A DNA stretch of 64,000 nucleotides from an uncultured Gemmatimonadota bacterium (GTDB lineage Bacteria; JAAXHH01), in the NCBI GenBank assembly GCA_951812955.1, contig OX638340.1, positions 2,688,001-2,752,000 of the forward strand. The letters run 5' to 3'. The translations under genes and the position numbers were made by a program. Of the stretch, positions 548 to 41,772 are shown piece after piece. The notes beneath the pieces were generated by a model. The model saw only the letters and a program-made list of their open reading frames with translations. It made no database searches and was not told the DNA's origin. Numbering within the stretch: the stretch's first letter is position 1; every line of letters starts with the position of its first letter.

Positions 548-1966
548 TCAACCCGTTCCTTCAGCGACCTCTTCCGATTCCTTGCCAAAGAGCCGGACGC
601 GCTTTCCGGCCAGCATGTCTCGCAGTTTGCTGCGAATCGCCCAGAGACAGGCCAGAGATGGGATCACCATCAGCGTTGTAATGACGAAGAAGGTCCCCCA
701 GTCGCCATCGAGCCAGTCGACCATCGCGCCGGAGGAAGCCGCGAAGATGGTCCGTCCCGCCGTCCCGATCGACGCGAGCAGGGCGTACTGCGTGGCCGTG
801 TACGTCCGGTCGACGAGCAGGGAGATGAAGGCGACGAAGGTCACGGTTGCGAAGGCGCTGGTAAGGTCGTCTACCACGACTGCGGTCGCGAACAGCAGTT
901 CTGACCTGTCCGACCAGGCCATGGTGGCGAACAGGAGATTGGTCACCGCCATGGCGATTCCCGCGGCGAACATGGCCCGGACGAGTCCGATGCGGATCGC
1001 GAGGAAACTGCCCAGCACGGTGAAAGCCACGGTGACAACCCAGCCCAGTCCCTTGGAGTAGAGGGCGATGTCCGACTTGGAGAACCCGATCTCCTTGTAG
1101 AAAATGAGGGACATGCGTCCGAGGAAGGCCTCGCCGATCTTGAACAGGAAGATGAAACCGAGCACGGCGGCGGCGATGGCGTACCCGTTGCGCCGGAAGA
1201 AGCTGGTCAGCGGGTTGGCCACGGTGCCTGCGAACCAGGCGACGACACGGCTGTACCTGCTTGGAATATGAAGGTGGGAGATGATCTTTTCATCATCCTC
1301 CACCTGTGCCGCGATGCGTTCCGAGGCGGCGGTCTCATGTACGAAGAGGAGGCCGATGTTGCAGAGGATGACCAGGGCGCCCAGACAGAGAAAGGTGGCC
1401 TGCCAGTAGTCTTCGACGCCGGCGCCTTGAAAGGCTTCCGCTGCCTCCAGGGCGATTACGCCGCCCAGTTTGAAGCCCGTCCACCATCCGACGACGGCCG
1501 TAGCCGCCCCGGCGGCCATGGACTCGCTTTCCGTCTTGCCGATCTGCTCGATACGCAGCGCGTCGATGGCGATGTCCTGGGTGGCGGACGCGATGGCAAT
1601 GGCGAGCCCGATGGCGACCACGCCGCTGAGATCGGCCGTCGGCTGGGCGACGCTCCAGAGCACGAGGCAGGTGAGGATGACGGCCTGCAGCGCGAAGATC
1701 CACGCCCGTCGATGTCCAAGCCAGGCCGTCAACAGGGGTATCCGGACCCGATCGATCAGCGGCGCCCAGAGGAAGTTGACGGCGTAAACGGCGAAGATCA
1801 GGCTCGCCCAGCCTATCGTGGTGCGGGAAAGGCCCTCTTCCTTCAACCATAAATTGAGGCAACTGCCAATGAGCACCCAGGGAAAACCGCTGATGATGCC
1901 CAGCAGGAGGATGCGGGCCATACGGCGCTCGAAATAGATCGACAGCGATTCCAAAAAGCTCCGCAT
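548..1966 (-). CDS. ampG: AmpG-family muropeptide MFS permease
   Basis: Polytopic MFS protein with an AmpG-like N-terminus (MRSFLESLSIYFERRMARILLLGIISGFPW...). The start is ATG at 1966, so the track ORF's 85-aa N-extension is not used. Confidence 0.8.
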   Translation of the reverse strand: MRSFLESLSIYFERRMARILLLGIISGFPWVLIGSCLNLWLKEEGLSRTTIGWASLIFAVYAVNFLWAPLIDRVRIPLLTAWLGHRRAWIFALQAVILTCLVLWSVAQPTADLSGVVAIGLAIAIASATQDIAIDALRIEQIGKTESESMAAGAATAVVGWWTGFKLGGVIALEAAEAFQGAGVEDYWQATFLCLGALVILCNIGLLFVHETAASERIAAQVEDDEKIISHLHIPSRYSRVVAWFAGTVANPLTSFFRRNGYAIAAAVLGFIFLFKIGEAFLGRMSLIFYKEIGFSKSDIALYSKGLGWVVTVAFTVLGSFLAIRIGLVRAMFAAGIAMAVTNLLFATMAWSDRSELLFATAVVVDDLTSAFATVTFVAFISLLVDRTYTATQYALLASIGTAGRTIFAASSGAMVDWLDGDWGTFFVITTLMVIPSLACLWAIRSKLRDMLAGKRVRLFGKESEEVAEGTG

Positions 1967-2068
1967 GGGATGCTCCGAAGGGAGTTTGCTTCCGCCCCTG
2001 CCGTGGTTCGTGAAGGGCGGCGAAGACGACGGGAATGTATGCACGCGGGGCCATATCGTCAATCGAAT

Positions 2069-2108
2069 TGAAAGCAGCGCCAGCCGCGCGAAAGCAGCGC
2101 CAGCCGCG
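2069..2108. repeat. Perfect 20-bp tandem duplication (gaaagcagcgccagccgcgc x2) in the divergent ampG / cytochrome c-PCuAC intergenic region
   Basis: Direct reading of the sequence at 2069-2088 and 2089-2108. Confidence 0.8.
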
Positions 2109-2199
2109 CCCGGGCCCAGTCGCGCGCGCCCGGGAAGAACATGGCTTTCCGCCGGCGGTAGTCGTTGACAGAAAGGCGGAATATCGCTAGGATAAAGCC

Positions 2200-3069
2200 A
2201 TGTTTTCGGCTGGTACGACACGGGTGCGGTTGCCTCGGACGCTGCGGATCTGCGGCAGCATATTGGTCCTCTATGGACTGGTGTTCTGCCACTTCGGATG
2301 CGGTTCGTCTGGTTCGGAGGTGGATCCGAATGACAGAGAGGCCGTGGCCCGGGCGTTCTTGGACCAGTTGATCGAGGGCACGATCACGCCCGGAACGATC
2401 GGTTTCCACGAAGTACCCGAACAGTTCGTGCAGGATGGGAAGGCGTTGTATACCCGGTACGGCTGTACCGTGTGCCACGGCATGGACGGCCACGGGGACG
2501 GGCCGGTCGCCTATACGCTGAAGCCACCACCCCGCGACTTCAGGGACCCCGGCGCCTACCGCGTCGGCCGCGACGTGGTCACGATCGCCGGCACACTGAG
2601 GGACGGCATGCCCGACAGCCCGTCCATGGTGCCCTTCCCCCATATCAAGGACGAAGAGCGCTTCAAGATCGCCATGTACGTGGCTTCGCTGCAGCCGGCG
2701 GACGACCTGGAGATCGCCGGGACCTGGGTGCGGGCCACACCGCCGAACCGCGACGTTACCGCCGCCTACCTGGTGATCAAGAACCGGTCGGACCGGACCC
2801 GGGAATTGCTGTCCGTCGAGACGCCGGCCGCTGAATACACGGAACTGCATACCATGCGGTACGTAGACGACATGATGGAGATGGAAAAGATTGAACGCCT
2901 GGTGGTTCCAGCGCAGGGCGAGGCGGCATTGAAGCCTGGCGGAAACCACATCATGTTGTTCGGTGTGAAACGACAGATGGTGGAAGGCGATTCGGTATCC
3001 CTGACTCTGCGTTTCGCCGACCAGTCGACCCGGAACATTGTGGCCGAAGTGTTGAAAAGCAAACCATAG
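2200..3069 (+). CDS. Cytochrome c domain fused to a PCu(A)C copper chaperone (DUF461). Signal peptide/lipoprotein-like N-terminus.
   Basis: CTVCHG heme-binding motif in the N-terminal half. PCuAC-like H/M-rich region in the C-terminal half (ELHTM...MMEMEKIERL...GGNHIMLFG). Confidence 0.7.
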   Translation: MFSAGTTRVRLPRTLRICGSILVLYGLVFCHFGCGSSGSEVDPNDREAVARAFLDQLIEGTITPGTIGFHEVPEQFVQDGKALYTRYGCTVCHGMDGHGDGPVAYTLKPPPRDFRDPGAYRVGRDVVTIAGTLRDGMPDSPSMVPFPHIKDEERFKIAMYVASLQPADDLEIAGTWVRATPPNRDVTAAYLVIKNRSDRTRELLSVETPAAEYTELHTMRYVDDMMEMEKIERLVVPAQGEAALKPGGNHIMLFGVKRQMVEGDSVSLTLRFADQSTRNIVAEVLKSKP

Positions 3070-10883: not shown

Positions 10884-10951
10884 CTCATGAGAGGAGGATT
10901 GGGAAACCGCGGTCGAGCGCCACGTTTTCCATGTGGAGTTCCGTGTCCCCT

Positions 10952-30730: not shown

Positions 30731-32401
30731 ATGCGCGTACCCGTAATACTCGTATCGATACTTGCACTGGTCTCCTGCGGCGAGAGTGAACGCGCCGCCG
30801 AACAACCCGAGGCAGGGGGACGCGTAAACTCGATCGGCGTGGTCCTCCCGGATGACGCGGTGGACGCCTCCCGCCAGGTGCTGCGCTCCATGAGTCCCGA
30901 GCCCAAGAGCCTGGACCCCAGTATCGAACCCTACGATACCGAACAGACGATCCTGCCCTTTGAAGCGCTGCTGTTCAAGGACGAACACTGGAACCCGATC
31001 CCGGGCGCCGCGCACAGCTGGGGTTCGGAAGACGGCATTGTCTGGACCTTCAATCTCAGGTCCGGGATGCGCTGGAGCGACGGATCGCCTCTGACCGCGC
31101 ACGACTTCGTGTATTCCTATCGCCGGATGCTCAATCCCGAATCCACCAACATCTACGCCTTTTTCTACTACGACATCAAAAACGCCGAAGCCATCGTCAA
31201 AGGGGAGAACAAGGATATCGAGTCCCTGGGCATAAAGGCGGTGGATGACACGACCCTGGTCATCGAAACGGAAAAACGCGCACCTTACCTGCCCCATATC
31301 GTTTCCTTCGGCGACGCCATGCCGGTGCCGAAGCGGCTGGTGGACAAATACGGACGCAAGTGGACCGAGCCGGAGCACATCATCACCAATTCCGGCTTCA
31401 AAGTATCTGAATGGGTTCACGGCAGCCACATGACCCTCGTTCCCAATCCCTATTACAACGGCCCCCACAAGCCATTCCTGGAGAAGGTTATCCACCCCTT
31501 CCGAAACGCGGCCGCGGCGACCATACTTCCCTACGAGGGCGACGAAGTCGACATGGAGAACGTGGATATCAACGATCTGAATCGAATTGAAAGTGATCCT
31601 CAACTGAAGAAGGATCTCGTGCGATTCCACGGATTGAATACCTGGTATGTCTTTTTCAGGACGCAGTTGCCGCCGTTCAACGACATTCGCGTGCGGGAAG
31701 CCTTCACGCGGGTGATGGACCGTGAAAACATCTGCAACATCATCCTGCGGGGCGGAGCAGTTCCGGCCTATTCCATGATCCCGCCAGGATTCAAGGAATT
31801 CGAAGGCGACACGCACGCCGCGGTGCAGGGTTTCGATCCCGAACGGGCGCGGCAGCTGATGCGCGAAGCCGGATATCCCGGGGGACAGGGATTCCCCCGG
31901 CAGGAGCTGTGGCTGCGGGCGCCGACCCCCTCCGTCCGCCTCATCGGCGTGGCGATCCAGAGCATGCTGAAGGAGCATCTCGGCATCGAGGTGGACATCC
32001 GGACGGCCGACCTGCACTCCTACATGGACCACCTGTACAAGTGGGACATGAACCTCGGCTTGATCGCTTTCGGCGCCGATTTCCTCGACCCGCGCAACAT
32101 GCTGGACATGATATGGCACTCCCAGCCCCAGGGTCATGGGCGGCAGGACTGGCACAATCCCGGCTTCGACCGCCTTGTGGACTCGGCGGCCGCGGAACTG
32201 AACCAGGAAACACGGTACAGCCTGTACCGGGAAGCCTCGGCCGTCATGGCGGCGGACTATCCCGCCGCCTTCCTCTATCACGGGATGGGCCTGCAGCTCC
32301 GGAAACCCTGGCTTAAAGGCTATGCCGTAAACGAAGACGGCACCGTGGGTTCCTTCCGCTGGCACAAGCTGTACATCGCCGAGGTGGACGATGGGGAGTA
32401 G
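30731..32401 (+). CDS. ABC transporter substrate-binding protein, family 5 (oligopeptide/dipeptide/nickel type)
   Basis: Lipoprotein-like signal MRVPVILVSILALVSCGE. SBP_bac_5 blocks are present (MRWSDGSPLTAHDFVYSYRRMLNPES...). Confidence 0.8.
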   Translation: MRVPVILVSILALVSCGESERAAEQPEAGGRVNSIGVVLPDDAVDASRQVLRSMSPEPKSLDPSIEPYDTEQTILPFEALLFKDEHWNPIPGAAHSWGSEDGIVWTFNLRSGMRWSDGSPLTAHDFVYSYRRMLNPESTNIYAFFYYDIKNAEAIVKGENKDIESLGIKAVDDTTLVIETEKRAPYLPHIVSFGDAMPVPKRLVDKYGRKWTEPEHIITNSGFKVSEWVHGSHMTLVPNPYYNGPHKPFLEKVIHPFRNAAAATILPYEGDEVDMENVDINDLNRIESDPQLKKDLVRFHGLNTWYVFFRTQLPPFNDIRVREAFTRVMDRENICNIILRGGAVPAYSMIPPGFKEFEGDTHAAVQGFDPERARQLMREAGYPGGQGFPRQELWLRAPTPSVRLIGVAIQSMLKEHLGIEVDIRTADLHSYMDHLYKWDMNLGLIAFGADFLDPRNMLDMIWHSQPQGHGRQDWHNPGFDRLVDSAAAELNQETRYSLYREASAVMAADYPAAFLYHGMGLQLRKPWLKGYAVNEDGTVGSFRWHKLYIAEVDDGE

Positions 32402-33347
32402 GGATATTCTTCGGGGTGAGTGGGGACTCCGGGGTGAACGGAGACTGTCCGCTCTCATTTTCCTTCTCACGCCGCTCCTCCTGGGCGCCTCGGCCCTGTT
32501 CTGGATTCCCGGGGCGGCAGTGGCGCAGGAAAGTCCGGTCATCCTCGAAGCGATCAGCGTCCTCCCCGTGGAAGGTCCCGAATCCAACCAGCCATCGGGA
32601 CTCTTCGTCCATCAAGACACCCTGTTTACCGTTTCCGACAAGCACGACGATACCATCTTCAGGATTGAACTTCGGGAGGATGCCGCGGTTTTCGTGCCAC
32701 ACGTCCGTTTCGACCCACCCAGACCCTTCGGTGTGTTCAGGCTGGACCTGGAAGGCATCACCCGCGATGAGGACGGAAGTTTCTATCTCGTCAGCGAAGG
32801 GGCCTTCGCCATTCTGAAGGTCGACGCGGACTCGAAAAAGGCATCCTGGGTCACCACGAACCTACGGGACGTGGGCGCTTCGGCGGGGCTCTTCCAGACC
32901 CGCGGCGGTTATCTCGAGGGGATCACGCTGATGGCCAAAGACCGGTTTCTGGTCACCGCCGAACGGCAGCCCTGCGGCCTGATCGAAGTCGACATGGCCC
33001 CCGTGCAAAGGGTCGTGGAGATCGCTAATCATGGATCGACGAACAGTTACACGGGTCTGCACCGGGAGGTCGAAAACGTATACATTCTGCAGCGGAGCAC
33101 CGCGACCATCCGGAAGACCATCCGGTACCTGGACGTGGACAGTCCCTCGGCGATCTGGTCCTTCGCCCATATCGTCAACGACCCGGAATATCTCTATCAG
33201 CACGAACAATTCGGCGCGAAAACGGCAGAGGGACTCGCCATGGACCGCGACCGGGTCTACGTCATCCTCGATAACAACAATGACGCGCGCAGGATGTATC
33301 CCACCGATCACAGGCCCTTGCTCCTGATCATGAAGCGGCCCGACTGA
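32391..33347 (+). CDS. Secreted beta-propeller-like protein (SdiA-regulated / phytase-like esterase family)
   Basis: Signal peptide, and a DLEGITRDEDGSFYLVSEG block resembling the YjiK/phytase-like propeller families. The family call is tentative. Confidence 0.4.
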   Translation: MGSRDILRGEWGLRGERRLSALIFLLTPLLLGASALFWIPGAAVAQESPVILEAISVLPVEGPESNQPSGLFVHQDTLFTVSDKHDDTIFRIELREDAAVFVPHVRFDPPRPFGVFRLDLEGITRDEDGSFYLVSEGAFAILKVDADSKKASWVTTNLRDVGASAGLFQTRGGYLEGITLMAKDRFLVTAERQPCGLIEVDMAPVQRVVEIANHGSTNSYTGLHREVENVYILQRSTATIRKTIRYLDVDSPSAIWSFAHIVNDPEYLYQHEQFGAKTAEGLAMDRDRVYVILDNNNDARRMYPTDHRPLLLIMKRPD

Positions 33348-33361
33348 CGCGCTCCGCGGCA

Positions 33362-33450
33362 TGAAACGGCCGGCCACCAGTGCCGCGTATTGAGAAGCGA
33401 CCCGGCTGAAACGGCCGGCCACCAGCGCCGCGGATCACGAAGCGGCCCCT
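33362..33450. repeat. Imperfect tandem duplication with a 44-bp period (tgaaacggccggccaccagYgccgcg...) upstream of the AmgK-like gene
   Basis: Direct reading of the sequence. Confidence 0.6.
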
Positions 33451-34970
33451 TTGACGGAACGCCGGATCGTACCCGGCCGGGACAGGCGACCATGATTCCA
33501 GATGCCCGGGACAGGCTGGCACGACTCTTCCGAAACACATTCGGCCATGCACCGGCGCACATCGCCACCCTGGGCGCGGACGGATCGATACGGCGGTACT
33601 TCCGGCTGCAGGGCGAAGATCAAACCGTCATCGGCGCAGCCAACAACGACCGGCGCGAGAACACCGCCTTCCTTTTCCTGTCCCGCCACTTCCGTCGCCA
33701 CGGACTGCCGGTACCCGAGATATACGCCCAGGATCTGGACCAGGGCGTCTACCTGCAGCAGGACCTGGGCGACGAGACGCTGTTCAGCCGGTTGGCCGCC
33801 GCCCGCGCGGAGGAGGGGACGTTTCCGGAACGGTTGGCCGCCGCCCGCGCGGAGGAGGGGACGTTTCCGGAACGGTTGGCGGCGATATACCGGCGGGTTC
33901 TCGACGACCTGCCCCGTTTCCAGGTCACCGCGGCGGAGAATCTGGACTTCTCGGTCTGCTACCCAAGGAGCCGTTTTGACGGGCAATCCATCCAGTGGGA
34001 CCTGAACTACTTCAAGTACCACTTCCTGAAGCTCGTGCCTGTCGACTTTGACGAGCAGGCCCTTGAAAACGATTTCGAACGATTCACGGCGTACCTCTTG
34101 GAAGCCGATACCCGATACTTCCTGTACCGGGATTTCCAGTCCCGGAATATCATGCTGCACGATGGCCGGCCGCATTACATAGACTACCAGGGCGGGCGGC
34201 AGGGCGCCCTTCAGTACGACATCGCGTCGCTCCTTCAGGACGGCAGGGCCGACATCCCGTGGGCAACGCGGGACGAACTCCTGGATTATTATGTCGAGAA
34301 AATCGGAGCGTACGCGGCTGTTTCAAGAGCATCGTTTCTGTCCCACTACTACGGCTACGCCCTGGTCCGTCTCATGCAGGCGCTGGGCGCCTACGGGTAC
34401 CGCGGGCTGTACGAAGGCAAGTCCCACTTCCTGACCAGTATCTCCCATGGCGTTCGTAACCTCGAGGGTCTGTTGGTGCGGGCCGCCCTGCCGGACGACC
34501 TGCCTGAACTGACCCGGGCCTGGTCGCGGATCGTCGACGATCCTGCGCTTCGGCGAATGGGAGCGGTTTCCGGAGAAGGGCTGACCGTCCACCTCTGGAG
34601 TTTTTCCTATCACCTCGGCCTGCCCCGGGACCCGAGCGGAAACGGCGGGGGTTTCATCTTCGACTGCCGGATCGTGAAGAACCCCGGGCGTATTCCCGAA
34701 TACGCGGCCCTGACGGGGAAGGACGCACCGGTGGCCGTATTCCTGGACAAAAATGAGGATGCGCGGACCTTCCTGGGGGATGCGAAGACCATGGTCGACC
34801 GGGCGGTAGAACACCACCTGCGGCGCGGGTTCACCGACCTGACCGTCGCCTTCGGTTGTACCGGCGGCCAGCACCGTTCGGTATACTTCGCAGAGCGCCT
34901 GGCGGCGCACCTGTCGGAGCGTCCGGGCCTGACGGTCCGGCTGAGGCACCGGGAGCAGGAGGATTCGTGA
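33390..34970 (+). CDS. Fusion protein. N-terminal AmgK-like MurNAc/GlcNAc anomeric kinase (APH fold), C-terminal RapZ (YhbJ) C-terminal domain.
   Basis: The N-terminal half has the GADGSIRRYFRL and YRDFQSRNIML motifs of the AmgK/APH family. The C-terminal 110 aa align with the RapZ C-domain motif by motif (FIFDCRIVKNPGR..., VAVFLD, DLTVAFGCTGGQHRSVYFAERLAAHL). The likely start is ATG at 33492. Confidence 0.65.
   Translation: MRSDPAETAGHQRRGSRSGPFDGTPDRTRPGQATMIPDARDRLARLFRNTFGHAPAHIATLGADGSIRRYFRLQGEDQTVIGAANNDRRENTAFLFLSRHFRRHGLPVPEIYAQDLDQGVYLQQDLGDETLFSRLAAARAEEGTFPERLAAARAEEGTFPERLAAIYRRVLDDLPRFQVTAAENLDFSVCYPRSRFDGQSIQWDLNYFKYHFLKLVPVDFDEQALENDFERFTAYLLEADTRYFLYRDFQSRNIMLHDGRPHYIDYQGGRQGALQYDIASLLQDGRADIPWATRDELLDYYVEKIGAYAAVSRASFLSHYYGYALVRLMQALGAYGYRGLYEGKSHFLTSISHGVRNLEGLLVRAALPDDLPELTRAWSRIVDDPALRRMGAVSGEGLTVHLWSFSYHLGLPRDPSGNGGGFIFDCRIVKNPGRIPEYAALTGKDAPVAVFLDKNEDARTFLGDAKTMVDRAVEHHLRRGFTDLTVAFGCTGGQHRSVYFAERLAAHLSERPGLTVRLRHREQEDS
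33791..33874. repeat. Perfect 42-bp in-frame tandem duplication inside the AmgK-like gene (encodes LAAARAEEGTFPER x2)
   Basis: Identical 42-mers at 33791-33832 and 33833-33874. Confidence 0.85.
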
Positions 34971-34975
34971 AGGCC

Positions 34976-35728
34976 ATGATCCTCGCCGCGGGACTGGGTA
35001 CCCGGTTGCGGCCCCTCACTGACACCCGGCCTAAAGCCCTCGTGCCGGTGGCCGGCAGACCCATGATTCACTGGGTGATCGCGCGACTCGCCAGTCACGG
35101 CTTCACGGACATCATCATCAATGCCCATCATTTCGCGGCGCAGATCGAGACCTTCGCGGCCGCGTACAAAGGTCCGGGCTCCCCACTGACTGTTTCCGTA
35201 GAGGAGGAGATCCTGGACACGGGCGGCGGGGTGCGGAAGGCCGCGTGGTTCTTCGACCGCGAGGAGCCGTTCCTGGTGCACAACGTGGACGTGCTGACCG
35301 ACCTGGATCTATCCGGCCTGATGAACGCTCACCTGGCTTCGGATGCCCATTCGGCCTATGGGGCCCTGGTCACCTTGGCCGTGAAGAGTAGAAAAAGTTC
35401 GCGTCACCTCCTGTTCGATGAGGCGGGACGGCTGGGCGGCTGGCGTTCGGACGTTACGGGAGAGACGCGCACGGTCCGGCCGATAGCGGGTCCCGTCACC
35501 CCCGTGCCCTTCATGGGCGTCTACGTCATGTCCCCTGCCGTGTTGAGAAAGATGGCCGATCCCGGTCCCTTTTCGATCATCGACTTCTTCCTGGACCAGG
35601 CAGGTGGCGGCGCGCCGATTCGGGCCTATCGGGCTGATGATGCCAGGTGGGCGGATCTCGGAAGCGAGGACCGCATCGCGGCGGCCGAGCGGCTCTTCGG
35701 TACGGACTGGTTCGCGGAGATCGGTTAA
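34976..35728 (+). CDS. murU: MurU-like sugar-1-phosphate nucleotidyltransferase (N-acetylmuramate alpha-1-phosphate uridylyltransferase family)
   Basis: MILAAGLGTRLRPLT...KALVPV nucleotidyltransferase N-terminus. Sits immediately downstream of the AmgK-like gene, which is the canonical AmgK-MurU pair. Confidence 0.65.
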   Translation: MILAAGLGTRLRPLTDTRPKALVPVAGRPMIHWVIARLASHGFTDIIINAHHFAAQIETFAAAYKGPGSPLTVSVEEEILDTGGGVRKAAWFFDREEPFLVHNVDVLTDLDLSGLMNAHLASDAHSAYGALVTLAVKSRKSSRHLLFDEAGRLGGWRSDVTGETRTVRPIAGPVTPVPFMGVYVMSPAVLRKMADPGPFSIIDFFLDQAGGGAPIRAYRADDARWADLGSEDRIAAAERLFGTDWFAEIG

Positions 35729-36330
35729 TCCGTTCTCCAGACGAACACATACACGCAAAGGCCAGGCTTACCCGCCATCGGTCGAAATGACTTGAAGCGC
35801 AGCGCGCCAACGGTTATCTTGGTACCGTATCGATCTTCCTATAAACACGCCCTCACCCGAAGGAGGTTTGAATTGGCTGACGCATCGTCCTCCCGCGGCG
35901 CGAGGCAGTGTCTGCGTAGTCTGCTCTATCGCGGTTGTTGCCCCCGCCGAAGTTTTACTCCTACATAACCGGCGACAGCGGGCAAATACGCGGTGAAGAC
36001 GTTTCCTTCAGGATTCGCGCTCGTTGAGCGTCTCCGGTAATCCTCGCGGAACGGTTTCTCCTCCATTATGGCCCGGACGGTCATCTTGTTCGTACCGCCC
36101 GGGGCGATGGCAACTCGTGGATATACGGAATTCCCTGCCCGAAGCCAGGCGGGAATCCTGTCCTGTAGCAGCCTTTCTCCTGCCCCGCGCGGATCGTGCA
36201 TCTATTGATCCGAGCCACGACCCGTCGCTACACGATAGCGAGTCGAGCTGCGAGAAGCGTGCAGAGCGTGTTCAATTTTCAGTGCGCAGGATATCCGCGC
36301 CGGCTCTCCGAAATCAGTAAGGTAGGTACT

Positions 36331-37722
36331 ATGTCCGGCAGAATGAATGGAAGCCCCCCCAAATTCCAGATTTACGATCTCAGGAACTACAGAAAAATAC
36401 CCCAGATTGAGCATCTCCGGGACGAGCTGAAATTCGAAATGGAAGTCGTCGCGCAGGTTCTACCGTTCCGGACCAATTCCCACGTGGTGGAGAACCTGAT
36501 CCAATGGGAGAACATCCCCGACGACCCCATGTTCCAGCTCACTTTTCCGCAGCGGGAGATGCTGTCGCCGGACCACTTCGACGCGGTGGCTGCATTGGTG
36601 AAAAAGCAGGCGGGCAAAGCGGAAATGGCGCGCACGGTGAACCGGATCCGATGGGATCTGAATCCACAGCCCGCGGGCCAACTCGAGCACAATGTCCCCA
36701 GGGAGGACAACGAGAGACTGGATGGCATGCAGCACAAGTACCGGGAGACGGTACTGTTCTTTCCATCCCAGGGACAGACCTGCCACGCATACTGCACCTT
36801 CTGCTTCCGCTGGCCCCAGTTCGTGGGGATCGATGAGCTGAAGTTCGCCAGCCGCGAGGTCGAAAGTCTCATCAGATATCTTGAGGAAAATCCCCAGGTC
36901 ACCGACGTACTTTTCACGGGCGGCGATCCCATGGTCATGCGAGCAAAGAACCTTAGCGTGTATGTCGATGCGTTGCTGAAGGCGGACCTCCCCAATCTGC
37001 ACACGATCCGAATCGGGACGAAATCGCTGGCGTACTGGCCCTACAAGTACCTTACTGACCCGGACGCGGACGACGTGCTGGCGCTCTTCGAACGGGTAAT
37101 TCGCGCCGGTAAGCACCTGGCCATCATGGCCCATTGCAGCCATCCCGCCGAACTGCAACCCGACGCGGTGGCAAAAGCGGTCGGCCGGATCCGTGGTACG
37201 GGGGCAAGAGTTTACACGCAGTCTCCCATTCTGAGGCATATCAACGACGATCCGAACACCTGGGCCGCCATGTGGCGCAAGCAGGTGGACCTGGGGATGG
37301 TTCCCTATTACATGTTCGTGGTGCGAGACACCGGCGTGCAGCGCTTCTTCGCCGTGCCGCTGGTTCGCGCGTGGGAGATCTTCCAGAACGCCTATCAGCA
37401 GGTAAGTGGGATATGCCGGACCGTGCGCGGCCCCAGCATGTCGGCCCATCCCGGGAAGATCCATGTCCTGGGCGTCAGCGAGGTCCGCGGAGAGAAGATC
37501 ATCGCCCTGCAATTCCTGCAGGGACGCAATCCCGACTGGGTCCTGCGGCCGTTCTTCGCCCGGTACGACGAAAGAGCCATCTGGCTGGACGACCTCGAGC
37601 CGGCCTTTGGCGAGGAGTCGTTTTTCTTCGAAGAAGAGTTGGCGCAGTTGTGCGCTGAGGACCTGCCCTCCGGCCAGTGGGACGTGATGGAGTCCCTGGT
37701 GCTGGAAGGCGTGGAGTTTTAG
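36331..37722 (+). CDS. KamA-family radical SAM aminomutase (lysine 2,3-aminomutase-like)
   Basis: CHAYCTFCFRW (CxxxCxxC), LFTGGDP and IRIGTK blocks, and the long KamA-type C-terminus. ATG at 36331. Confidence 0.8.
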   Translation: MSGRMNGSPPKFQIYDLRNYRKIPQIEHLRDELKFEMEVVAQVLPFRTNSHVVENLIQWENIPDDPMFQLTFPQREMLSPDHFDAVAALVKKQAGKAEMARTVNRIRWDLNPQPAGQLEHNVPREDNERLDGMQHKYRETVLFFPSQGQTCHAYCTFCFRWPQFVGIDELKFASREVESLIRYLEENPQVTDVLFTGGDPMVMRAKNLSVYVDALLKADLPNLHTIRIGTKSLAYWPYKYLTDPDADDVLALFERVIRAGKHLAIMAHCSHPAELQPDAVAKAVGRIRGTGARVYTQSPILRHINDDPNTWAAMWRKQVDLGMVPYYMFVVRDTGVQRFFAVPLVRAWEIFQNAYQQVSGICRTVRGPSMSAHPGKIHVLGVSEVRGEKIIALQFLQGRNPDWVLRPFFARYDERAIWLDDLEPAFGEESFFFEEELAQLCAEDLPSGQWDVMESLVLEGVEF

Positions 37723-37875
37723 TGAACGGGGCAGGGGTCAGGGTACGGTACTTGATGACCTCCCTGGGATCAGCGTTTTTCGGCCACAGCCTCAGCCAGC
37801 TGTTCTTTAGCCCACTGATTAACACTCACGCCGCCCACCTCGGCCGCCTCGGCTACCGCTGCGTGGGTTTCCGGA

Positions 37876-39336
37876 TCAATCCCCCAGCCCCGCATACCGG
37901 CAGACAATCTCCACGGCCTTGACCAGGGTCTTCGCGCCGAGTACGGCGTATTCCTCGATCAGGTTGCCTTCCTGGTCGAGCGTACCCAGGCCGGGACCGA
38001 GGAACATCTTCCCGCTGTAAATCGTGGCCGGTTCGACGCCCATGTGCTCCTGGGCGAGGACGATGGGATTGGTGTTGGCCCACAGGTCTTCCAGGTTGAA
38101 GATCGGGATGCCGAAGGCGCCGTCTTTCCACGTGCGTTCGTAGTTGAGCTCGGTGCCGCCGAGCTGGTAGGTTTTCGTGAAGATCAGGTCGTCGCGGAAT
38201 CGGGAGGGTTCCATCCGGGCGAATTCCTCTACGATGATTTCGTGGAACCGGTCCACGGGATCGGTGACCAGGCGGGGACGGTCGCGGAGGACCTTCAGGT
38301 AAGCGGTCAGACCGACCAGGGTGTCCCGGCCGGGATCACTGAAGGTATAGACCGCCTTGCCGTGGGAGGACAGCTCGCCGTACCGCTGGCCGCCCAGGCC
38401 CATGCCCTTGCGGATCGGGTTTATGACCTCTTCGCGGCCAATCAGCAACCCCGACGCAGGCGCACGGCCCGGCTTGTCCATGCTGTAGGTGATGATGTCG
38501 CAGCCGATGTCCCGGGGATCCATGCCGACGATGGGAATCGATCCTCCCGTGTCCACGATGTAGGGCACGTCGTAGTCCCGGGCCACGTCGGCGAGTTTCT
38601 TCAGGAGGATCGGCGCGCCGTTCTCGTCCTGTTCGCCGAGTCCGTAGCTGGGTGTGTCGTATCCCACCGTGGCGATGCCCGTGAGCAGGGAAGCGTTCCG
38701 TTCGGCGGCCTTCTTCACGTTTCCGATGGTGCCGTCCACGTCCACCCCGGTGAGCAACGAGGTGGGATTATACCGGATGCCGTGCGGATCGTATTTCGCG
38801 CCGGCCATGGGTACGTAGAGCGTCTCGAGGTTCGCCAGGCTCTTGTTCTCGATGCCCAGTTCGCCGCCGGCGATAGTCCGGTCCACGAGAAGGTTCTTGT
38901 ACCGCGGCGGGAAGGCCCGGCCGTAGCCGCCGATCCATTCGTAGTCCTCGCCGTAAGGCATGAGCAGGCGGCCGCGGTAGATGTCGCCGTGGCGCATGGA
39001 GGGCGGAGCGCAAAGCGTCTCCAGGGTCAGGCGCAGCAGCGATTCGCAGGTGTTGGCGGCCACCGCGTCGAACTCATCGCCGTAGACGTCCTTGACGACT
39101 TCCCGCAGTTCGTCTTCGACCACCCGCACCGGGTAGGTCTTGCCGCCCCGGTTGGCTTCCACAATCGCGTCGAGAACGTAATCGGGGAGGTTGCCTGGTC
39201 TCGCCGAACTGCCGGCGTACAGGCCGATGTCCTGCCGTAGCTTCAGCGTGCCGATCTCTTCGCCGTATATCCGGGCCTCTTCGGCGATTTTACCCAAATT
39301 GTCGTAGATTGACTGGTACCACTGGAACTTGTACAT
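37876..39336 (-). CDS. SelA-like (seryl-tRNA(Sec) selenium transferase fold) PLP-dependent enzyme of unknown specificity
   Basis: DIITYSMDKPGRAPASGLLIG resembles the SelA PLP-lysine block (VTFSGDKLLGGPQAG). ATG at 39336. The N-extension in the track is not used. Confidence 0.5.
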   Translation of the reverse strand: MYKFQWYQSIYDNLGKIAEEARIYGEEIGTLKLRQDIGLYAGSSARPGNLPDYVLDAIVEANRGGKTYPVRVVEDELREVVKDVYGDEFDAVAANTCESLLRLTLETLCAPPSMRHGDIYRGRLLMPYGEDYEWIGGYGRAFPPRYKNLLVDRTIAGGELGIENKSLANLETLYVPMAGAKYDPHGIRYNPTSLLTGVDVDGTIGNVKKAAERNASLLTGIATVGYDTPSYGLGEQDENGAPILLKKLADVARDYDVPYIVDTGGSIPIVGMDPRDIGCDIITYSMDKPGRAPASGLLIGREEVINPIRKGMGLGGQRYGELSSHGKAVYTFSDPGRDTLVGLTAYLKVLRDRPRLVTDPVDRFHEIIVEEFARMEPSRFRDDLIFTKTYQLGGTELNYERTWKDGAFGIPIFNLEDLWANTNPIVLAQEHMGVEPATIYSGKMFLGPGLGTLDQEGNLIEEYAVLGAKTLVKAVEIVCRYAGLGD

Positions 39337-39420
39337 GGCTGTTCTTTCTCGGATCCGCACTGCGTTGGACGAGACGGGAAGATCGTCTACGGGCGGTTTC
39401 ACGCCGGACCGTCGTGGGGA

Positions 39421-40575
39421 TCAGGGTATGCTGGAAATCACTTCGAGGGCCCGTTCCACGTCGGACACCCGGTTGTACAAGTGGGGCGAGAATCGGATCA
39501 CGTCGCCGCGCAACGCGACCATGACGCCGGACTGCTTCAGATGCTTCGCCACGCTGGAGATGTCGTGGCCGGGAAAACGGGCGGTAACAATGGCCGAGCG
39601 TTCGGCGGCGTTCCGGGGGGAAGTGACCTCGGCGCCGATATCCGCCAGGCCGCTGATGAGGTGGTCGGCGAGGACCTGGTTATGGGCGAAGATCTCGTCG
39701 ATACCCGTGTCCACGAGGAATCCGATCGACTTCGCGAACCCGCCGGCCAACCCATAGGCCATGGTGCTGAACTCGAACCGGGACGCGTCCTCCGGGTAAT
39801 CCGGCGGATCGGTGCTGATGTCCCAGATGTCGACCTGGCTCCGAAAGCCCACCAGGCCGGGTTCGAGGCTCGTGGCGAGATGCGGAGCGAGGTACATGAC
39901 GGCGATACCGAAAGGACCGCACAGCCACTTGTATGCTCCGGCGGCAACGGCGTCGATGCCCATGCCGGGTGCGTCGATGGGGACGGCGCCCGCGGACTGC
40001 GTGGCGTCCACGACGAGCAGGGCTCCGTGCCGGTGCGCGATCTCGGCAAAAGCGGCGAGGTCCCAGCGCTGGCCGCTGCGGAATTCGACGTGGGACAGGG
40101 CCACTACGGCCGTGTTGTCGTCAATGAGGTCCCGGACGCGGCCGGGATCGACAGTACCTCCCCCCCGCGCGTGCGCCAGCCGGATCTCACAGCCCGTGTG
40201 GTTGGCGACCCGTCTCCAGGGGTAGACCGAAGCGGGGAAGGATACGTCCGTGCTGACGACGTTGGTTTCCGGTCCGGGCATGACCGCCCAGGCGAGGGAA
40301 CTCAGGAGCTCGGTGGTGCTGGACCCGGCGGCGATGTCGGTCGGCGACGCGTTGAAGAGCCGGGCGGCCTGCCGGTGCAACTCATCGAATACCGTGGCTT
40401 CGGCTTCTTCGTCGAAGTGGTTGCTGCCGTTCTCGGCGACGTCCCGGTACCATTCGGTGATCGCGGACGCGGCCGGACGGTACATGGGCGTTACGTTCGC
40501 CGCGTTGATGTAGGTGCAGGTCTGTGCTACGGGAAACTCATCGACCGGAACCAGCGGATCGAGGGACTGTGGCAT
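39421..40575 (-). CDS. Class V aminotransferase / cysteine-desulfurase-fold PLP enzyme
   Basis: AYKWLCGPFG block and the fold-type I class V layout. Confidence 0.75.
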   Translation of the reverse strand: MPQSLDPLVPVDEFPVAQTCTYINAANVTPMYRPAASAITEWYRDVAENGSNHFDEEAEATVFDELHRQAARLFNASPTDIAAGSSTTELLSSLAWAVMPGPETNVVSTDVSFPASVYPWRRVANHTGCEIRLAHARGGGTVDPGRVRDLIDDNTAVVALSHVEFRSGQRWDLAAFAEIAHRHGALLVVDATQSAGAVPIDAPGMGIDAVAAGAYKWLCGPFGIAVMYLAPHLATSLEPGLVGFRSQVDIWDISTDPPDYPEDASRFEFSTMAYGLAGGFAKSIGFLVDTGIDEIFAHNQVLADHLISGLADIGAEVTSPRNAAERSAIVTARFPGHDISSVAKHLKQSGVMVALRGDVIRFSPHLYNRVSDVERALEVISSIP

Positions 40576-40593
40576 GGTAAGGCCTCCCGGCGA

Positions 40594-41772
40594 TCAACCG
40601 GCGGCCGCGTCGCGCTCGTTCACTGTTCCCGCGTCCTCTTCCTCGGCGACCTGGCGGAGCAGGCTGGCAATCCGGCGCAGTCCCTCGTTCAGGTAGTCGG
40701 ACGGCAGGCCGTAGCTGATGCGGAGATGGTTAGGTATGCCGAAGTAGTCCCCTGGACCGATGAGCACCGACTTCTCCTGGATCAGTCGATTCGCCAGTGT
40801 CGCGGAATCGGCCTTCAGGTTGTACCGGACGAAGGAAACGGCCGTTGCCTGGGGCGGAACGAGACTCAGGATGTCCGAGTTGTCGCTGATCCAGCCGTGG
40901 TAGTTCTCCCATCCCCGCCGGATATAGCCCCGCGTCCTTTCGAAGATGGCCTGCCGCACGTCCGGGCGCAGCGCCAGCGGCGCGAGGAAATGGTTGGACA
41001 ACTTGGCGGTGCTCAAAGTCAGGTACTCGTGGCGCTTCCAAAGCTCCCTGAGCAGGTCTTCAGGACCCACGAGCCAGCCGATCCGCAGGCCGGGCATGCC
41101 GAAGGACTTGGACATGCTGCCCGCCGCGATGACCCGGTCGTACCGACCGTAGAAGGTGGGCGAAACCTCCTCCCGCTCCCGCTCGGACCCGGCGTAGATC
41201 TCGTCGGCGAGCAGGTAGGCGCCGCTGCGTTCGGCCGCGCGGACGACGGCGTCCATTTCGGATTCCGTCAGGATCTGCCCCGTCGGGTTGTTTGGGTTGC
41301 AGATGGAGATCAGTTTCGTTTCGTCAGATACGGCGGACTCCAGGCTGTCGGTATCGAGCGCCCATCCCCGGTCGGGATCGAGGGTGAACGTCCGGCGGAT
41401 GGCGCCCATGTTGTGCGCGAGCCCCCAACTCTGGAGGTAGCATGGCACCTGGACCGCCACCTCGCCCCCGCCTTCCAGCAGCGTCTGGAACGTGATGTAA
41501 TTGGCCTCGATGCATCCGATGGTCACCAGTACGTTATCGGCCGTGGCGCCGGGGTAGTACTGGGCAATGGCCTCCCGCAGTTCAGGCGAACCGTTGGCGT
41601 ATCCGTAGCCCAGTTCGGTATCCAGCATGCGGTCCAGGATATCGGGATCGTGGGCGATCAGTTCCCTGACCTTGACCGGGTGCGCGCCGCTCTCGGACAG
41701 GTTGTATTCCACGACCTGTTCCCAGTCCGACATGATGCGTTCCAGGTCAAAAGTCTGGAAGGTCGATGCCAT
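40594..41772 (-). CDS. Class I/II aminotransferase (aspartate/aromatic family)
   Basis: NPNNPTG and SMSKSFGMPGLRIGW (SxSK PLP-lysine) motifs. Confidence 0.8.
   Translation of the reverse strand: MASTFQTFDLERIMSDWEQVVEYNLSESGAHPVKVRELIAHDPDILDRMLDTELGYGYANGSPELREAIAQYYPGATADNVLVTIGCIEANYITFQTLLEGGGEVAVQVPCYLQSWGLAHNMGAIRRTFTLDPDRGWALDTDSLESAVSDETKLISICNPNNPTGQILTESEMDAVVRAAERSGAYLLADEIYAGSEREREEVSPTFYGRYDRVIAAGSMSKSFGMPGLRIGWLVGPEDLLRELWKRHEYLTLSTAKLSNHFLAPLALRPDVRQAIFERTRGYIRRGWENYHGWISDNSDILSLVPPQATAVSFVRYNLKADSATLANRLIQEKSVLIGPGDYFGIPNHLRISYGLPSDYLNEGLRRIASLLRQVAEEEDAGTVNERDAAAG

What the first reader, a model, noticed from the sequence alone, without database searches (positions are those of the whole stretch)
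33390..35728. AmgK-like anomeric MurNAc/GlcNAc kinase fused to a RapZ C-terminal domain, followed by MurU. An unusual architecture in the peptidoglycan-recycling shunt.
The N-terminal 400 aa have the APH-fold motifs of AmgK (GADGSIRRYFR, DFQSRN). The last 110 aa align motif for motif with the C-terminal domain of RapZ/YhbJ, including GCTGGxHRSVY.
The canonical partner MurU is immediately downstream, and ampG is at the start of the window, which supports a cell-wall sugar recycling role.
In RapZ the C-domain is the ligand/RNA-binding module, and the sugar-phosphate link is from established knowledge. Its attachment to a sugar kinase suggests allosteric or product-channelling control of the AmgK-MurU bypass. 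As far as I can tell this fusion is not a described architecture.
Basis: partly seen in the sequence, partly recalled or inferred. Interest (0 to 1): 0.6.

Follow-up and report, generated by a model that had tools for sequence, protein, structure and literature searches.

The report
AmgK-like sugar kinase fused to RapZ domain
The gene really does encode a cell-wall-sugar salvage kinase fused to the ligand-binding domain of the regulator RapZ, but this is the standard form of the enzyme in hundreds of bacterial species; I found no paper that mentions the extra domain.

Summary
**Observation confirmed.** One uninterrupted ORF carries two domains. The likely true start is ATG 33492, giving 492 aa, not TTG 33390.
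- The N-terminal domain is an APH-fold kinase whose only kinase matches in NCBIfam are the two AmgK models.
- A MurU-like nucleotidyltransferase follows, either overlapping by 4 bp or after a 5-bp gap.
- An AmpG-family transporter lies 31 kb away.

**"Unusual" is not supported.**
- The fusion occurs in at least 597 species genomes across about ten phyla or major lineages.
- About 800 clusters at 50% identity reach the score range that full-length family members occupy.
- MurU-like genes sit directly downstream in 58 of 76 loci.
- Kinase–RapZ_C–nucleotidyltransferase triple fusions also exist.

**What the extra domain retains.** Five of the six residues at or next to the RapZ anion pocket (C, T, G, H, R) are invariant. 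RapZ's RNA-contact basic residues and basic tail are not conserved.

**Best reading.** This is an anomeric amino-sugar kinase whose RapZ-type module binds a phosphorylated sugar or UDP-sugar. The module would regulate the kinase or hand the product to MurU. It is not an RNase adaptor.

**Open points.** No held paper contains both "AmgK" and "RapZ". I could not check whether the characterised Tannerella forsythia AmgK has this architecture. Overall this is a moderately interesting new variant of a known kind.

The parts
33492..34970 (+). Whole gene: 492-aa AmgK-like kinase fused to a RapZ C-terminal domain (stop codon 34968-34970). The listed TTG start at 33390 is probably not used.
   Evidence: homologues are typically 478 aa and align from M35 of the listed ORF.
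33492..34541 (+). APH-fold kinase domain (aa 1-350). It carries the glycine-rich ATP loop GADGSIRRYFR (33573-33605), the catalytic loop YRDFQSRN (34125-34148) and the metal-binding IDYQGGR (34179-34199).
   Evidence: Pfam APH. NCBIfam AmgK models are the only kinase hits. Foldseek top hit 3csv, TM 0.78 on the target. D214, N219 and D231 are conserved in 146 of 146 representatives.
33789..33880 (+). Perfect 42-bp tandem duplication (2.2 copies) that adds 14 aa (RLAAARAEEGTFPE twice) in a surface loop of the kinase domain.
   Evidence: TRF 100% match. The loop has pLDDT below 50. Diverged copies occur in the two closest relatives, P0001 and P0002, and the insert is absent from the other 27 aligned homologues.
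34581..34967 (+). RapZ C-terminal-type domain (aa 364-492).
34629..34652 (+). Family-specific glycine-rich insertion DPSGNGGG, five residues longer than in RapZ. It sits in the loop that holds I175, which the RapZ authors list as located near the pocket.
   Evidence: G383 is 106/109 and G385 108/109; G386 and G387 are invariant in 109 aligned family members. Location inferred from PMC9841335.
34851..34883 (+). Anion-pocket loop FGCTGGQHRSV, equivalent to RapZ C247, T248, G249, H252 and R253. It reads as C-x5-R-S between a strand and a helix.
   Evidence: 109 of 109 conserved. Secondary structure. Pocket residues defined in PMC5737377 and PMC9841335.
34967..35728 (+). MurU-like sugar-1-phosphate nucleotidyltransferase. 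It starts at GTG 34967 (4-bp GTGA overlap with the kinase stop, GGAGGA 4 nt upstream) or at ATG 34976.
   Evidence: Pfam NTP_transferase, with NCBIfam MurU models as best hits but below cut-off. Sequence. The same gene is directly downstream in 58 of 76 related loci.
548..2221 (-). AmpG-family muropeptide MFS transporter. It is distant and not part of the operon.
   Evidence: TIGR00901 369.4 bits against a cut-off of 350.

Best explanation
**What it is.** The gene encodes a two-domain enzyme of a large, conserved family that has no name of its own.

**Kinase domain.** The N-terminal APH-fold domain is an AmgK-type anomeric kinase. It most likely converts salvaged MurNAc and/or GlcNAc plus ATP to the alpha-1-phosphate (inferred).

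**Partner enzyme.** The downstream gene overlaps the kinase stop codon or starts 5 bp after it. It encodes a MurU-like nucleotidyltransferase that would convert the sugar-1-phosphate to the UDP-sugar, feeding peptidoglycan synthesis without MurA/MurB (inferred).

**RapZ-type domain.** The fused C-terminal domain keeps the fold and the phosphate-binding pocket of RapZ (shown). It has lost RapZ's RNA-contact surface and basic tail (shown). It most likely binds a phosphorylated amino sugar or UDP-amino sugar. Candidates are the sugar-1-phosphate product, UDP-MurNAc or UDP-GlcNAc, and GlcN6P. Binding would tune the kinase or pass the intermediate to MurU, and the domain probably also mediates self-association (inferred).

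**What it is not.** It is not an RNase adaptor.
For: **Both domains are real.** They are supported by sequence and by fold.

**Both are under strong constraint.** Across 146 representatives at 36-51% identity, the kinase catalytic residues D214, N219 and D231 and the pocket residues C456, T457, G458, H461 and R462 are all at least 95% conserved.

**The kinase looks like AmgK.** The two AmgK models are the only NCBIfam kinase hits.

**The link to a MurU-like enzyme is conserved.**
- A MurU-like gene lies immediately downstream on the same strand in 58 of 76 loci with enough sequence, across many phyla.
- Eight of the best 150 representative clusters are single polypeptides with APH, RapZ_C and NTP_transferase in that order.

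**Other neighbours point to the cell wall.** A handful of loci carry neighbours that by my reading of their sequences resemble MurQ, MurA and family-3 glycosidases; they were not scanned against family models.

**Published precedents for ligand binding by this domain.**
- The isolated RapZ C-terminal domain binds GlcN6P with KD 10 nM (PMC7073468).
- The pocket binds sulfate, malonate and RNA phosphates (PMC5737377 and PMC9841335).
- B. subtilis YvcJ binds UDP-GlcNAc (PMC13046274).

**The pocket looks remodelled rather than degraded.** Family-specific near-invariant residues lie at positions that flank it: R400 (101 of 109), R445 (108 of 109) and the glycine-rich insertion.
Against: **No biochemistry.** Nothing has been measured for this family here.

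**Scores fall below curated cut-offs.**
- AmgK models: 62 bits against 550, and 56 against 500.
- MurU models: 112 bits against 250, and 103 against 370.
- The substrate could therefore be another sugar.

**The pocket is not identical to RapZ.** One pocket residue, H190, is replaced by an invariant glycine, so the ligand need not be GlcN6P.

**Domain geometry is unknown.** I could not obtain model coordinates, so I do not know how the pocket sits relative to the kinase active site (pTM is only 0.71).

**Synteny is incomplete.** 18 of 76 loci, mostly Bacteroidota, lack an adjacent MurU-like gene.
Confidence: 0.6

Rival explanations
1. The RapZ-type domain is mainly a structural oligomerisation module with no ligand-sensing role. 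In RapZ this domain dimerises and helps build the tetramer.
For: The isolated RapZ C-terminal domain forms dimers, and D182A abolishes its self-interaction (PMC7073468; PMC5737377). The equivalent D391 is invariant in the fusion family.
Against: A pure scaffold would not need an invariant Cys-Thr-Gly-Gly-x-His-Arg-Ser pocket loop. Nor would it need the extra near-invariant arginines and the glycine loop around that pocket.
Confidence: 0.15
2. The RapZ-type domain is catalytic. One possibility is a cysteine-dependent sugar-phosphate phosphatase or phosphotransferase that makes free MurNAc from MurNAc-6-P, the MupP step. The protein would then move the phosphate from C6 to C1 in two steps.
For: - The invariant loop reads C-x5-R-S between a strand and a helix, which is the geometry of cysteine phosphatase P-loops.
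- In RapZ, C247S is inactive and the authors suggest the thiol may have 'a specialised catalytic function'.
- Their crystals of the domain grown with GlcN6P show 'a chemically transformed product' (PMC9841335).
- The organism has AmpG. By established pathway knowledge, imported anhydro-MurNAc is converted by AnmK to MurNAc-6-P, which must lose its phosphate before AmgK can act.
Against: - No enzymatic activity of this kind has been demonstrated for RapZ in the papers I read.
- No candidate general acid was tested.
- I did not check whether these genomes carry a MupP homologue.
Confidence: 0.12
3. The kinase and nucleotidyltransferase pair activates a different sugar, such as another N-acetylhexosamine or a glycan or capsule precursor. 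It would not be MurNAc/GlcNAc, and the AmgK/MurU label would be wrong.
For: Both proteins score far below the curated AmgK and MurU equivalog cut-offs. Identity to the nearest solved kinase is only 22%.
Against: AmgK and MurU are nevertheless the best-scoring curated families for both genes. Apparent MurQ-, MurA- and GH3-like neighbours (assigned by eye) recur in other loci. Tannerella forsythia, in the same phylum as many members, has functional AmgK/MurU orthologues (PMC10941766), although I could not confirm that they have this architecture.
Confidence: 0.2
4. It is a RapZ-like RNA-binding RNase adaptor, as some NCBI records name family members.
For: NCBI names P0063 and P0066 'RNase adapter RapZ'. 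The RapZ C-terminal domain alone can bind RNA (PMC5737377).
Against: - There is no RapZ N-terminal P-loop domain, and the RapZ equivalog score is 100.7 against a cut-off of 244.
- RNA-contact residues K194, R196, R211, R238, K251 and K270 and the K281-R282-K283 tail are not conserved. The window protein's tail is acidic.
- No Rfam family, and so no GlmY/GlmZ model, matched within 32000-37000.
Confidence: 0.03
5. The fusion is an assembly or sequencing artefact that merged two genes.
For: None found.
Against: The same continuous architecture, with a conserved linker, occurs in at least 597 species genomes. It also makes up essentially all of the best 150 representative clusters.
Confidence: 0.01

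Closest known systems
AmgK, the anomeric MurNAc/GlcNAc kinase of Pseudomonas putida/aeruginosa, studied also in Legionella, Caulobacter and Tannerella
   Same: - APH-fold kinase with matching ATP-loop and catalytic motifs.
- AmgK models are the best curated match.
- The gene sits directly upstream of a MurU-like gene, as amgK does (lpg0296/lpg0295 in Legionella; for Pseudomonas this is from general knowledge).
   Different: - It carries an extra 130-aa RapZ-type domain.
- It scores about a tenth of the equivalog cut-offs.
- It is about 22% identical to the closest solved relative, 3csv.
- The family sits in Gemmatimonadota, Acidobacteriota, Bacteroidota and other non-proteobacterial lineages.
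RapZ (YhbJ) of E. coli, the GlcN6P-sensing adaptor that presents the sRNA GlmZ to RNase E
   Different: - The N-terminal P-loop domain is replaced by an APH kinase.
- H190 is replaced by Gly.
- The RNA-contact basic residues and the basic C-terminal tail are lost.
- There is a 5-aa glycine-rich insertion and two extra near-invariant arginines beside the pocket.
YvcJ of Bacillus subtilis, a RapZ homologue that binds UDP-GlcNAc and partners with GlmR
   Same: It shows the same domain family acting in amino-sugar nucleotide homeostasis without sRNAs (PMC13046274).
   Different: YvcJ has the RapZ-type two-domain layout and is not fused to a sugar kinase. It is not known which of its domains binds UDP-GlcNAc.
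Bifunctional salvage enzymes that fuse a sugar 1-kinase to a nucleotidyltransferase, such as Bacteroides FKP (L-fucokinase/GDP-fucose pyrophosphorylase); recalled from general knowledge
   Same: The triple-fusion relatives (APH, RapZ_C, NTP_transferase) follow the same logic of kinase plus pyrophosphorylase in one chain.
   Different: The kinase fold is different (FKP uses a GHMP kinase). FKP has no RapZ-type module between the two activities.

Membership tests
AmgK (anomeric MurNAc/GlcNAc kinase) | APH/eukaryotic-like kinase fold with an intact catalytic loop and metal-binding Asp | tested here: met
   Pfam APH. Foldseek matches to APH-fold kinases. D214, N219 and D231 are conserved in 146 of 146 representatives.
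AmgK (anomeric MurNAc/GlcNAc kinase) | Score above the curated NCBIfam equivalog cut-off (NF045759, NF045698) | tested here: not met
   62.3 bits against 550, and 55.8 against 500. It is a distinct subfamily, not a canonical orthologue by this criterion.
AmgK (anomeric MurNAc/GlcNAc kinase) | Genetic pairing with a MurU-type nucleotidyltransferase | tested here: met
   In the window the next gene overlaps by 4 bp or follows after 5 bp. The pairing holds in 58 of 76 related loci, and triple fusions exist.
AmgK (anomeric MurNAc/GlcNAc kinase) | ATP-dependent phosphorylation of MurNAc/GlcNAc at the anomeric carbon | not testable with these tools
   Needs an enzyme assay. It might already exist if the T. 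forsythia AmgK has this architecture, which I could not check.
RapZ / YvcJ family | C-terminal domain PF22740 with the RapZ fold | tested here: met
RapZ / YvcJ family | N-terminal P-loop (Walker A) kinase-like domain, and a full-length equivalog score | tested here: not met
   There is no such domain; an APH fold takes its place. NF003828 scores 100.7 against 244 and matches only profile positions 157-277.
RapZ / YvcJ family | Sulfate/malonate (putative GlcN6P) pocket: H190, T248, G249, H252, R253, plus the adjacent C247 | tested here: inconclusive
   Five of the six are invariant. H190 is replaced by Gly in 108 of 109 members.
RapZ / YvcJ family | RNA-binding surface: K170, R184, K194, R196, R211, R238, K251 and the basic tail K270, K281, R282, K283 | tested here: not met
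   Only R184 is invariant and K170 is partly retained (K, H or R). R238 becomes Phe, K251 becomes Gln, K270 becomes a hydrophobic residue, and the tail is variable or acidic.
MurU (MurNAc-alpha-1-P uridylyltransferase), for the downstream gene | NTP_transferase fold, and a score above the curated MurU cut-off | tested here: inconclusive
   The fold is met (PF00483, E 9e-21). The MurU models are the best hits but fall below cut-off: 112.5 against 250, and 103.1 against 370.

The most novel reading that the evidence does not exclude
The RapZ-type domain is not just a sensor. It would be a working catalytic or phospho-relay module of an ancient amino-sugar salvage enzyme, for example removing or transferring the 6-phosphate of MurNAc-6-P through the invariant Cys-x5-Arg loop. 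RapZ's RNA-adaptor domain would then be a repurposed descendant of that enzyme module. This would explain the puzzling C247S phenotype and the 'chemically transformed' GlcN6P seen in RapZ crystals.
Probability: 0.12. Interest if true: 0.8.

Novelty: new variant of a known kind. Interest (0 to 1): 0.45.

Why it matters
**For the RapZ field.** Authors of the RapZ structures have argued that its C-terminal domain is a repurposed metabolite-binding module, perhaps with cryptic chemistry. This family shows the same domain, with the pocket intact and the RNA surface absent, fused to an amino-sugar kinase in hundreds of species. It is a natural system for asking what the domain binds or does without RNA.

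**For the peptidoglycan-recycling field.**
- A 2026 paper says the AmgK-MurU bypass has been observed in only a few species. AmgK-like/MurU-like gene pairs appear to be widespread in Bacteroidota, Acidobacteriota, Gemmatimonadota and other lineages.
- There the kinase carries an extra domain that could regulate the bypass. This matters for fosfomycin tolerance and for the MurNAc-probe labelling tools that use Tannerella enzymes.

**For annotation.** Some members are currently named "RNase adapter RapZ", which is almost certainly wrong.

Tried and rejected
**1. Does the characterised Tannerella forsythia AmgK have this architecture?** This could not be settled.
- The key papers are not held.
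- Other papers give no sequence, size or locus tag, and no supplements are held.
- A homologue search seeded with a gut Bacteroidales member and a cluster look-up returned no Tannerella names.

**3. AFDB50 fold search.** It would have given organism names, but the library was unavailable.

**4. Inter-domain geometry.** Model coordinates are not exposed to the script environment. I could not measure the distance from the pocket to the kinase active site.

**5. Regulatory RNA near the gene.**
- There is no credible Rfam match in 32000-37000; the one hit has E 0.38, far below its gathering score.
- The upstream leader has no unusual fold (z -0.98).

**6. Literature.**
- The search for 'AmgK' with 'RapZ' found nothing, and the search for Tannerella enzyme names found only the JACS paper already read.
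- The PF22740/RapZ-like search found five papers. I read only one of them, on GlmR, for its RapZ/YvcJ passages, and it does not mention a fusion to a sugar kinase.
- One broad query was badly designed and uninformative.

**7. Frameshift-merged genes.** Rejected on comparative grounds.
Full report
**What is in the sequence**

The ORF listed at 33390..34970(+) is real. Homologues are typically 478 aa and begin at the residue equivalent to M35 of the listed ORF. The gene therefore almost certainly starts at ATG 33492 and encodes 492 aa.

Domain evidence on the 526-aa ORF:
- Pfam finds an APH phosphotransferase domain at aa 63-302 (E 3.6e-8).
- Pfam finds the RapZ C-terminal domain PF22740 at aa 399-523 (E 7.4e-33, 113.8 bits against a cut-off of 27).
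- NCBIfam returns only three families: RapZ, matching only its C-terminal positions 157-277, and the two AmgK equivalog models. All three are far below their curated cut-offs.
- Against PDB sequences the two halves hit 3csv, a putative aminoglycoside phosphotransferase (E 3e-20), and E. coli RapZ (E 2e-18).

Structural evidence:
- An AlphaFold model of the full protein is confident (mean pLDDT 86.9, pTM 0.71). Foldseek matches it to APH-fold small-molecule kinases, best 3csv, and to RapZ.

**The partner gene and the wider window**

The next gene is an NTP_transferase whose best curated matches are the two MurU models, again below cut-off. It starts either at GTG 34967, overlapping the kinase stop as GTGA with a GGAGGA four bases upstream, or at ATG 34976.

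ORF 548..2221(-) passes the AmpG-family threshold. It lies 31 kb away, so it only shows that the organism can import muropeptides.

The immediate neighbours are a phytase-like beta-propeller protein upstream and a KamA-family radical SAM enzyme downstream. They have no evident connection. The closest named relatives are from Gemmatimonadota.

**Is it an artefact, and is it unusual?**

It is neither.
- A search of 5.8 billion proteins hit the 8000-candidate ceiling. 116 of the 120 best hits carry both Pfam domains; three list only PF22740 and one only the kinase domain. Most are about 478 aa.
The best 80 span Gemmatimonadota, Acidobacteriota/Terriglobia, many Bacteroidota lineages, Ignavibacteria, Elusimicrobia, Calditrichaceae, Lentisphaeria, Opitutaceae, Methylomirabilis and Eremiobacteraceae.
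- An exhaustive HMMER search of 1.84 billion cluster representatives gave 806 clusters at E <= 1e-30. Of the best 150, 134 are 440-520 aa and nearly all match across nearly the whole query.
- A frameshift-merged pair is excluded. "Unusual architecture" is not supported: this is the normal form of the kinase in these lineages.

**Functional linkage**

- In 58 of the 76 related loci with enough downstream sequence, a MurU-like gene follows directly on the same strand.
- Eight of the best 150 representative clusters are 714-816 aa and carry APH, RapZ_C and NTP_transferase in that order in one polypeptide. This ties all three modules to one process.
- A few loci have recurring neighbours that by my reading of the sequences resemble MurQ, MurA and a family-3 glycosidase. 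These were not scanned against family models.

**What the fused domain keeps and what it has lost**

I aligned 110 family members with E. coli RapZ residues 150-284.

Kept:
- The RapZ anion pocket is defined in the literature as H190, T248, G249, H252 and R253, with C247 adjacent (PMC5737377 and PMC9841335).
- In the fusion family, C456, T457, G458, H461 and R462 are invariant in all 109 informative sequences.
- The self-interaction residue D182 (here D391) and R184 (here R393) are also invariant.

Changed:
- H190 is replaced by Gly in 108 of 109 members and is followed by a nearly invariant Arg.
- There is an invariant Arg at the position of N236.
- A five-residue glycine-rich insertion (D-x-S/T-G-N/H-G-G-G) is near-invariant to invariant. 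These positions flank the pocket according to the published description.

Lost:
- The residues that contact GlmZ RNA are not conserved. K194, R196 and R211 vary, R238 becomes Phe, K251 becomes Gln and K270 becomes a hydrophobic residue.
- The K281-R282-K283 basic tail is variable or absent. In the window protein the C-terminus is acidic (REQEDS).

The same pattern holds over 146 more divergent representatives. There the kinase catalytic residues D214, N219 and D231 are also conserved. Both domains are thus under strong selection: the pocket is preserved and elaborated, and the RNA surface is gone.

**Most likely mechanism**

Shown:
- A two-domain protein with an intact APH-type active site.
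- An intact RapZ-type anion pocket.
- A gene immediately upstream of, or overlapping, a conserved sugar-1-phosphate nucleotidyltransferase gene.

Inferred:
- The kinase phosphorylates MurNAc and/or GlcNAc at C1, as AmgK does.
- The partner then makes the UDP-sugar, bypassing MurA/MurB.

For the extra domain, the precedents are all amino-sugar phosphate or nucleotide-sugar binding:
- The isolated RapZ C-terminal domain binds GlcN6P with KD 10 nM (PMC7073468).
- The pocket binds sulfate, malonate and RNA phosphates.
- B. subtilis YvcJ binds UDP-GlcNAc (PMC13046274).

I therefore commit to a ligand-binding role. The domain would sense a phosphorylated amino sugar or UDP-amino sugar to tune the kinase, and/or hold the sugar-1-phosphate for the nucleotidyltransferase. 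Its position between the two enzymes in the triple fusions fits this. It probably also contributes self-association. Confidence is about 0.6 for this package, much higher for the kinase and salvage part than for the exact role of the domain.

**Rivals**

- *Scaffold only.* A purely structural oligomerisation role is possible but does not explain the invariant pocket.
- *Catalytic domain.* This is the most interesting alternative.
  - The invariant loop reads C-x5-R-S between a strand and a helix.
  - RapZ C247S is unexpectedly inactive, and crystals of the domain grown with GlcN6P show a "chemically transformed product" (PMC9841335).
- *Different sugar.* This cannot be excluded, because both enzymes score below the curated AmgK and MurU thresholds.
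- *RNase adaptor.* This role is implied by the NCBI name "RNase adapter RapZ" on some members. It is contradicted by the missing N-terminal domain and the lost RNA surface.

**Comparison with what is known**

It works like AmgK plus MurU but is not a canonical AmgK orthologue by the curated criterion. It contains a RapZ domain but is not a RapZ.

No paper in the held library mentions both AmgK and RapZ. Of the papers found with RapZ-like or PF22740 terms, the one I read does not mention the fusion. [quoted passage not shown] T. forsythia belongs to an order where the fusion is common, and its AmgK/MurU work well in E. coli (PMC10941766). I could not obtain that sequence or the primary papers. 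Whether this architecture has already been assayed without the domain being remarked on remains open.

**Verdict**

This is a member of a large, conserved and functionally undiscussed variant of the AmgK-type salvage kinase. Its value is comparative. It offers an RNA-free context for the enigmatic RapZ C-terminal domain, and it suggests that AmgK-like/MurU-like gene pairs are far more widespread than the handful of species in which the pathway has been studied. Interest 0.45; new variant of a known kind.

Noticed in passing
window 33789-33880: A perfect 42-bp tandem duplication (2.2 copies, 100% identity) inside the kinase gene adds 14 aa (RLAAARAEEGTFPE twice). It lies in a loop that AlphaFold models with pLDDT below 50. 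The two closest relatives, P0001 and P0002, have the same insertion with diverged copies. The other 27 aligned homologues lack it, as does the 80%-identical locus L001, whose match spans 478 codons.
   Followed up: partly
window 33357-33448: A 45-bp unit repeated twice (85% identity) fills most of the 144-bp gap between the phytase-like gene and the kinase start. It is absent from L001, where the gap is about 40 bp. It occurs nowhere else in the window, has no Rfam match and has no unusual RNA fold (z -0.98). Two local tandem duplications within 500 bp may point to a duplication-prone region.
   Followed up: partly
proteins P0305, P0328, P0369, P0383, P0391, P0403, P0404, P0426: Single polypeptides of 714-816 aa from other organisms carry APH, RapZ_C and NTP_transferase in that order. 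They are natural triple fusions of the kinase, the RapZ-type domain and the MurU-like enzyme. I did not verify on their contigs that they are not read-through gene calls.
   Followed up: partly
proteins P0063, P0066: NCBI annotation names some members of this kinase family 'RNase adapter RapZ'. They lack the RapZ N-terminal domain and RNA-binding residues, so this is probably a propagating misannotation.
   Followed up: partly
loci such as L058:3539-4513(-), L027:4613-5950(+), L065:10278-13358(-): In a handful of related loci the fusion gene sits next to ORFs whose sequences look like MurQ (SIS domain), MurA and a family-3 glycosidase. Four to five loci show each. I assigned these by eye and did not scan them. 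If correct, they are extra circumstantial links to cell-wall sugar metabolism.
   Followed up: no
window 8892-11198 (-): A 768-aa ORF has a phosphoglucosamine-mutase/phosphohexomutase-like region only at aa 267-600, with best NCBIfam scores far below cut-off. It also has a long unmatched N-terminal extension. It may be another amino-sugar enzyme with an unusual architecture.
   Followed up: no
window 10952-12907 (-), 12998-14953 (-), 14950-16443 (-): Three large consecutive ORFs on the minus strand have no NCBIfam match at E <= 1e-5. Two of them are exactly 651 aa, so they may be tandem paralogues.
   Followed up: no
window 36196-41772: A KamA-family radical SAM aminomutase-like gene (36196-37722, +) is followed on the opposite strand by three genes: a 508-aa protein with no Pfam match (37876-39402) and two PLP aminotransferases (39421-40575, 40594-41772). 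This may be a beta-amino-acid or small-molecule cluster unrelated to the finding.
   Followed up: no
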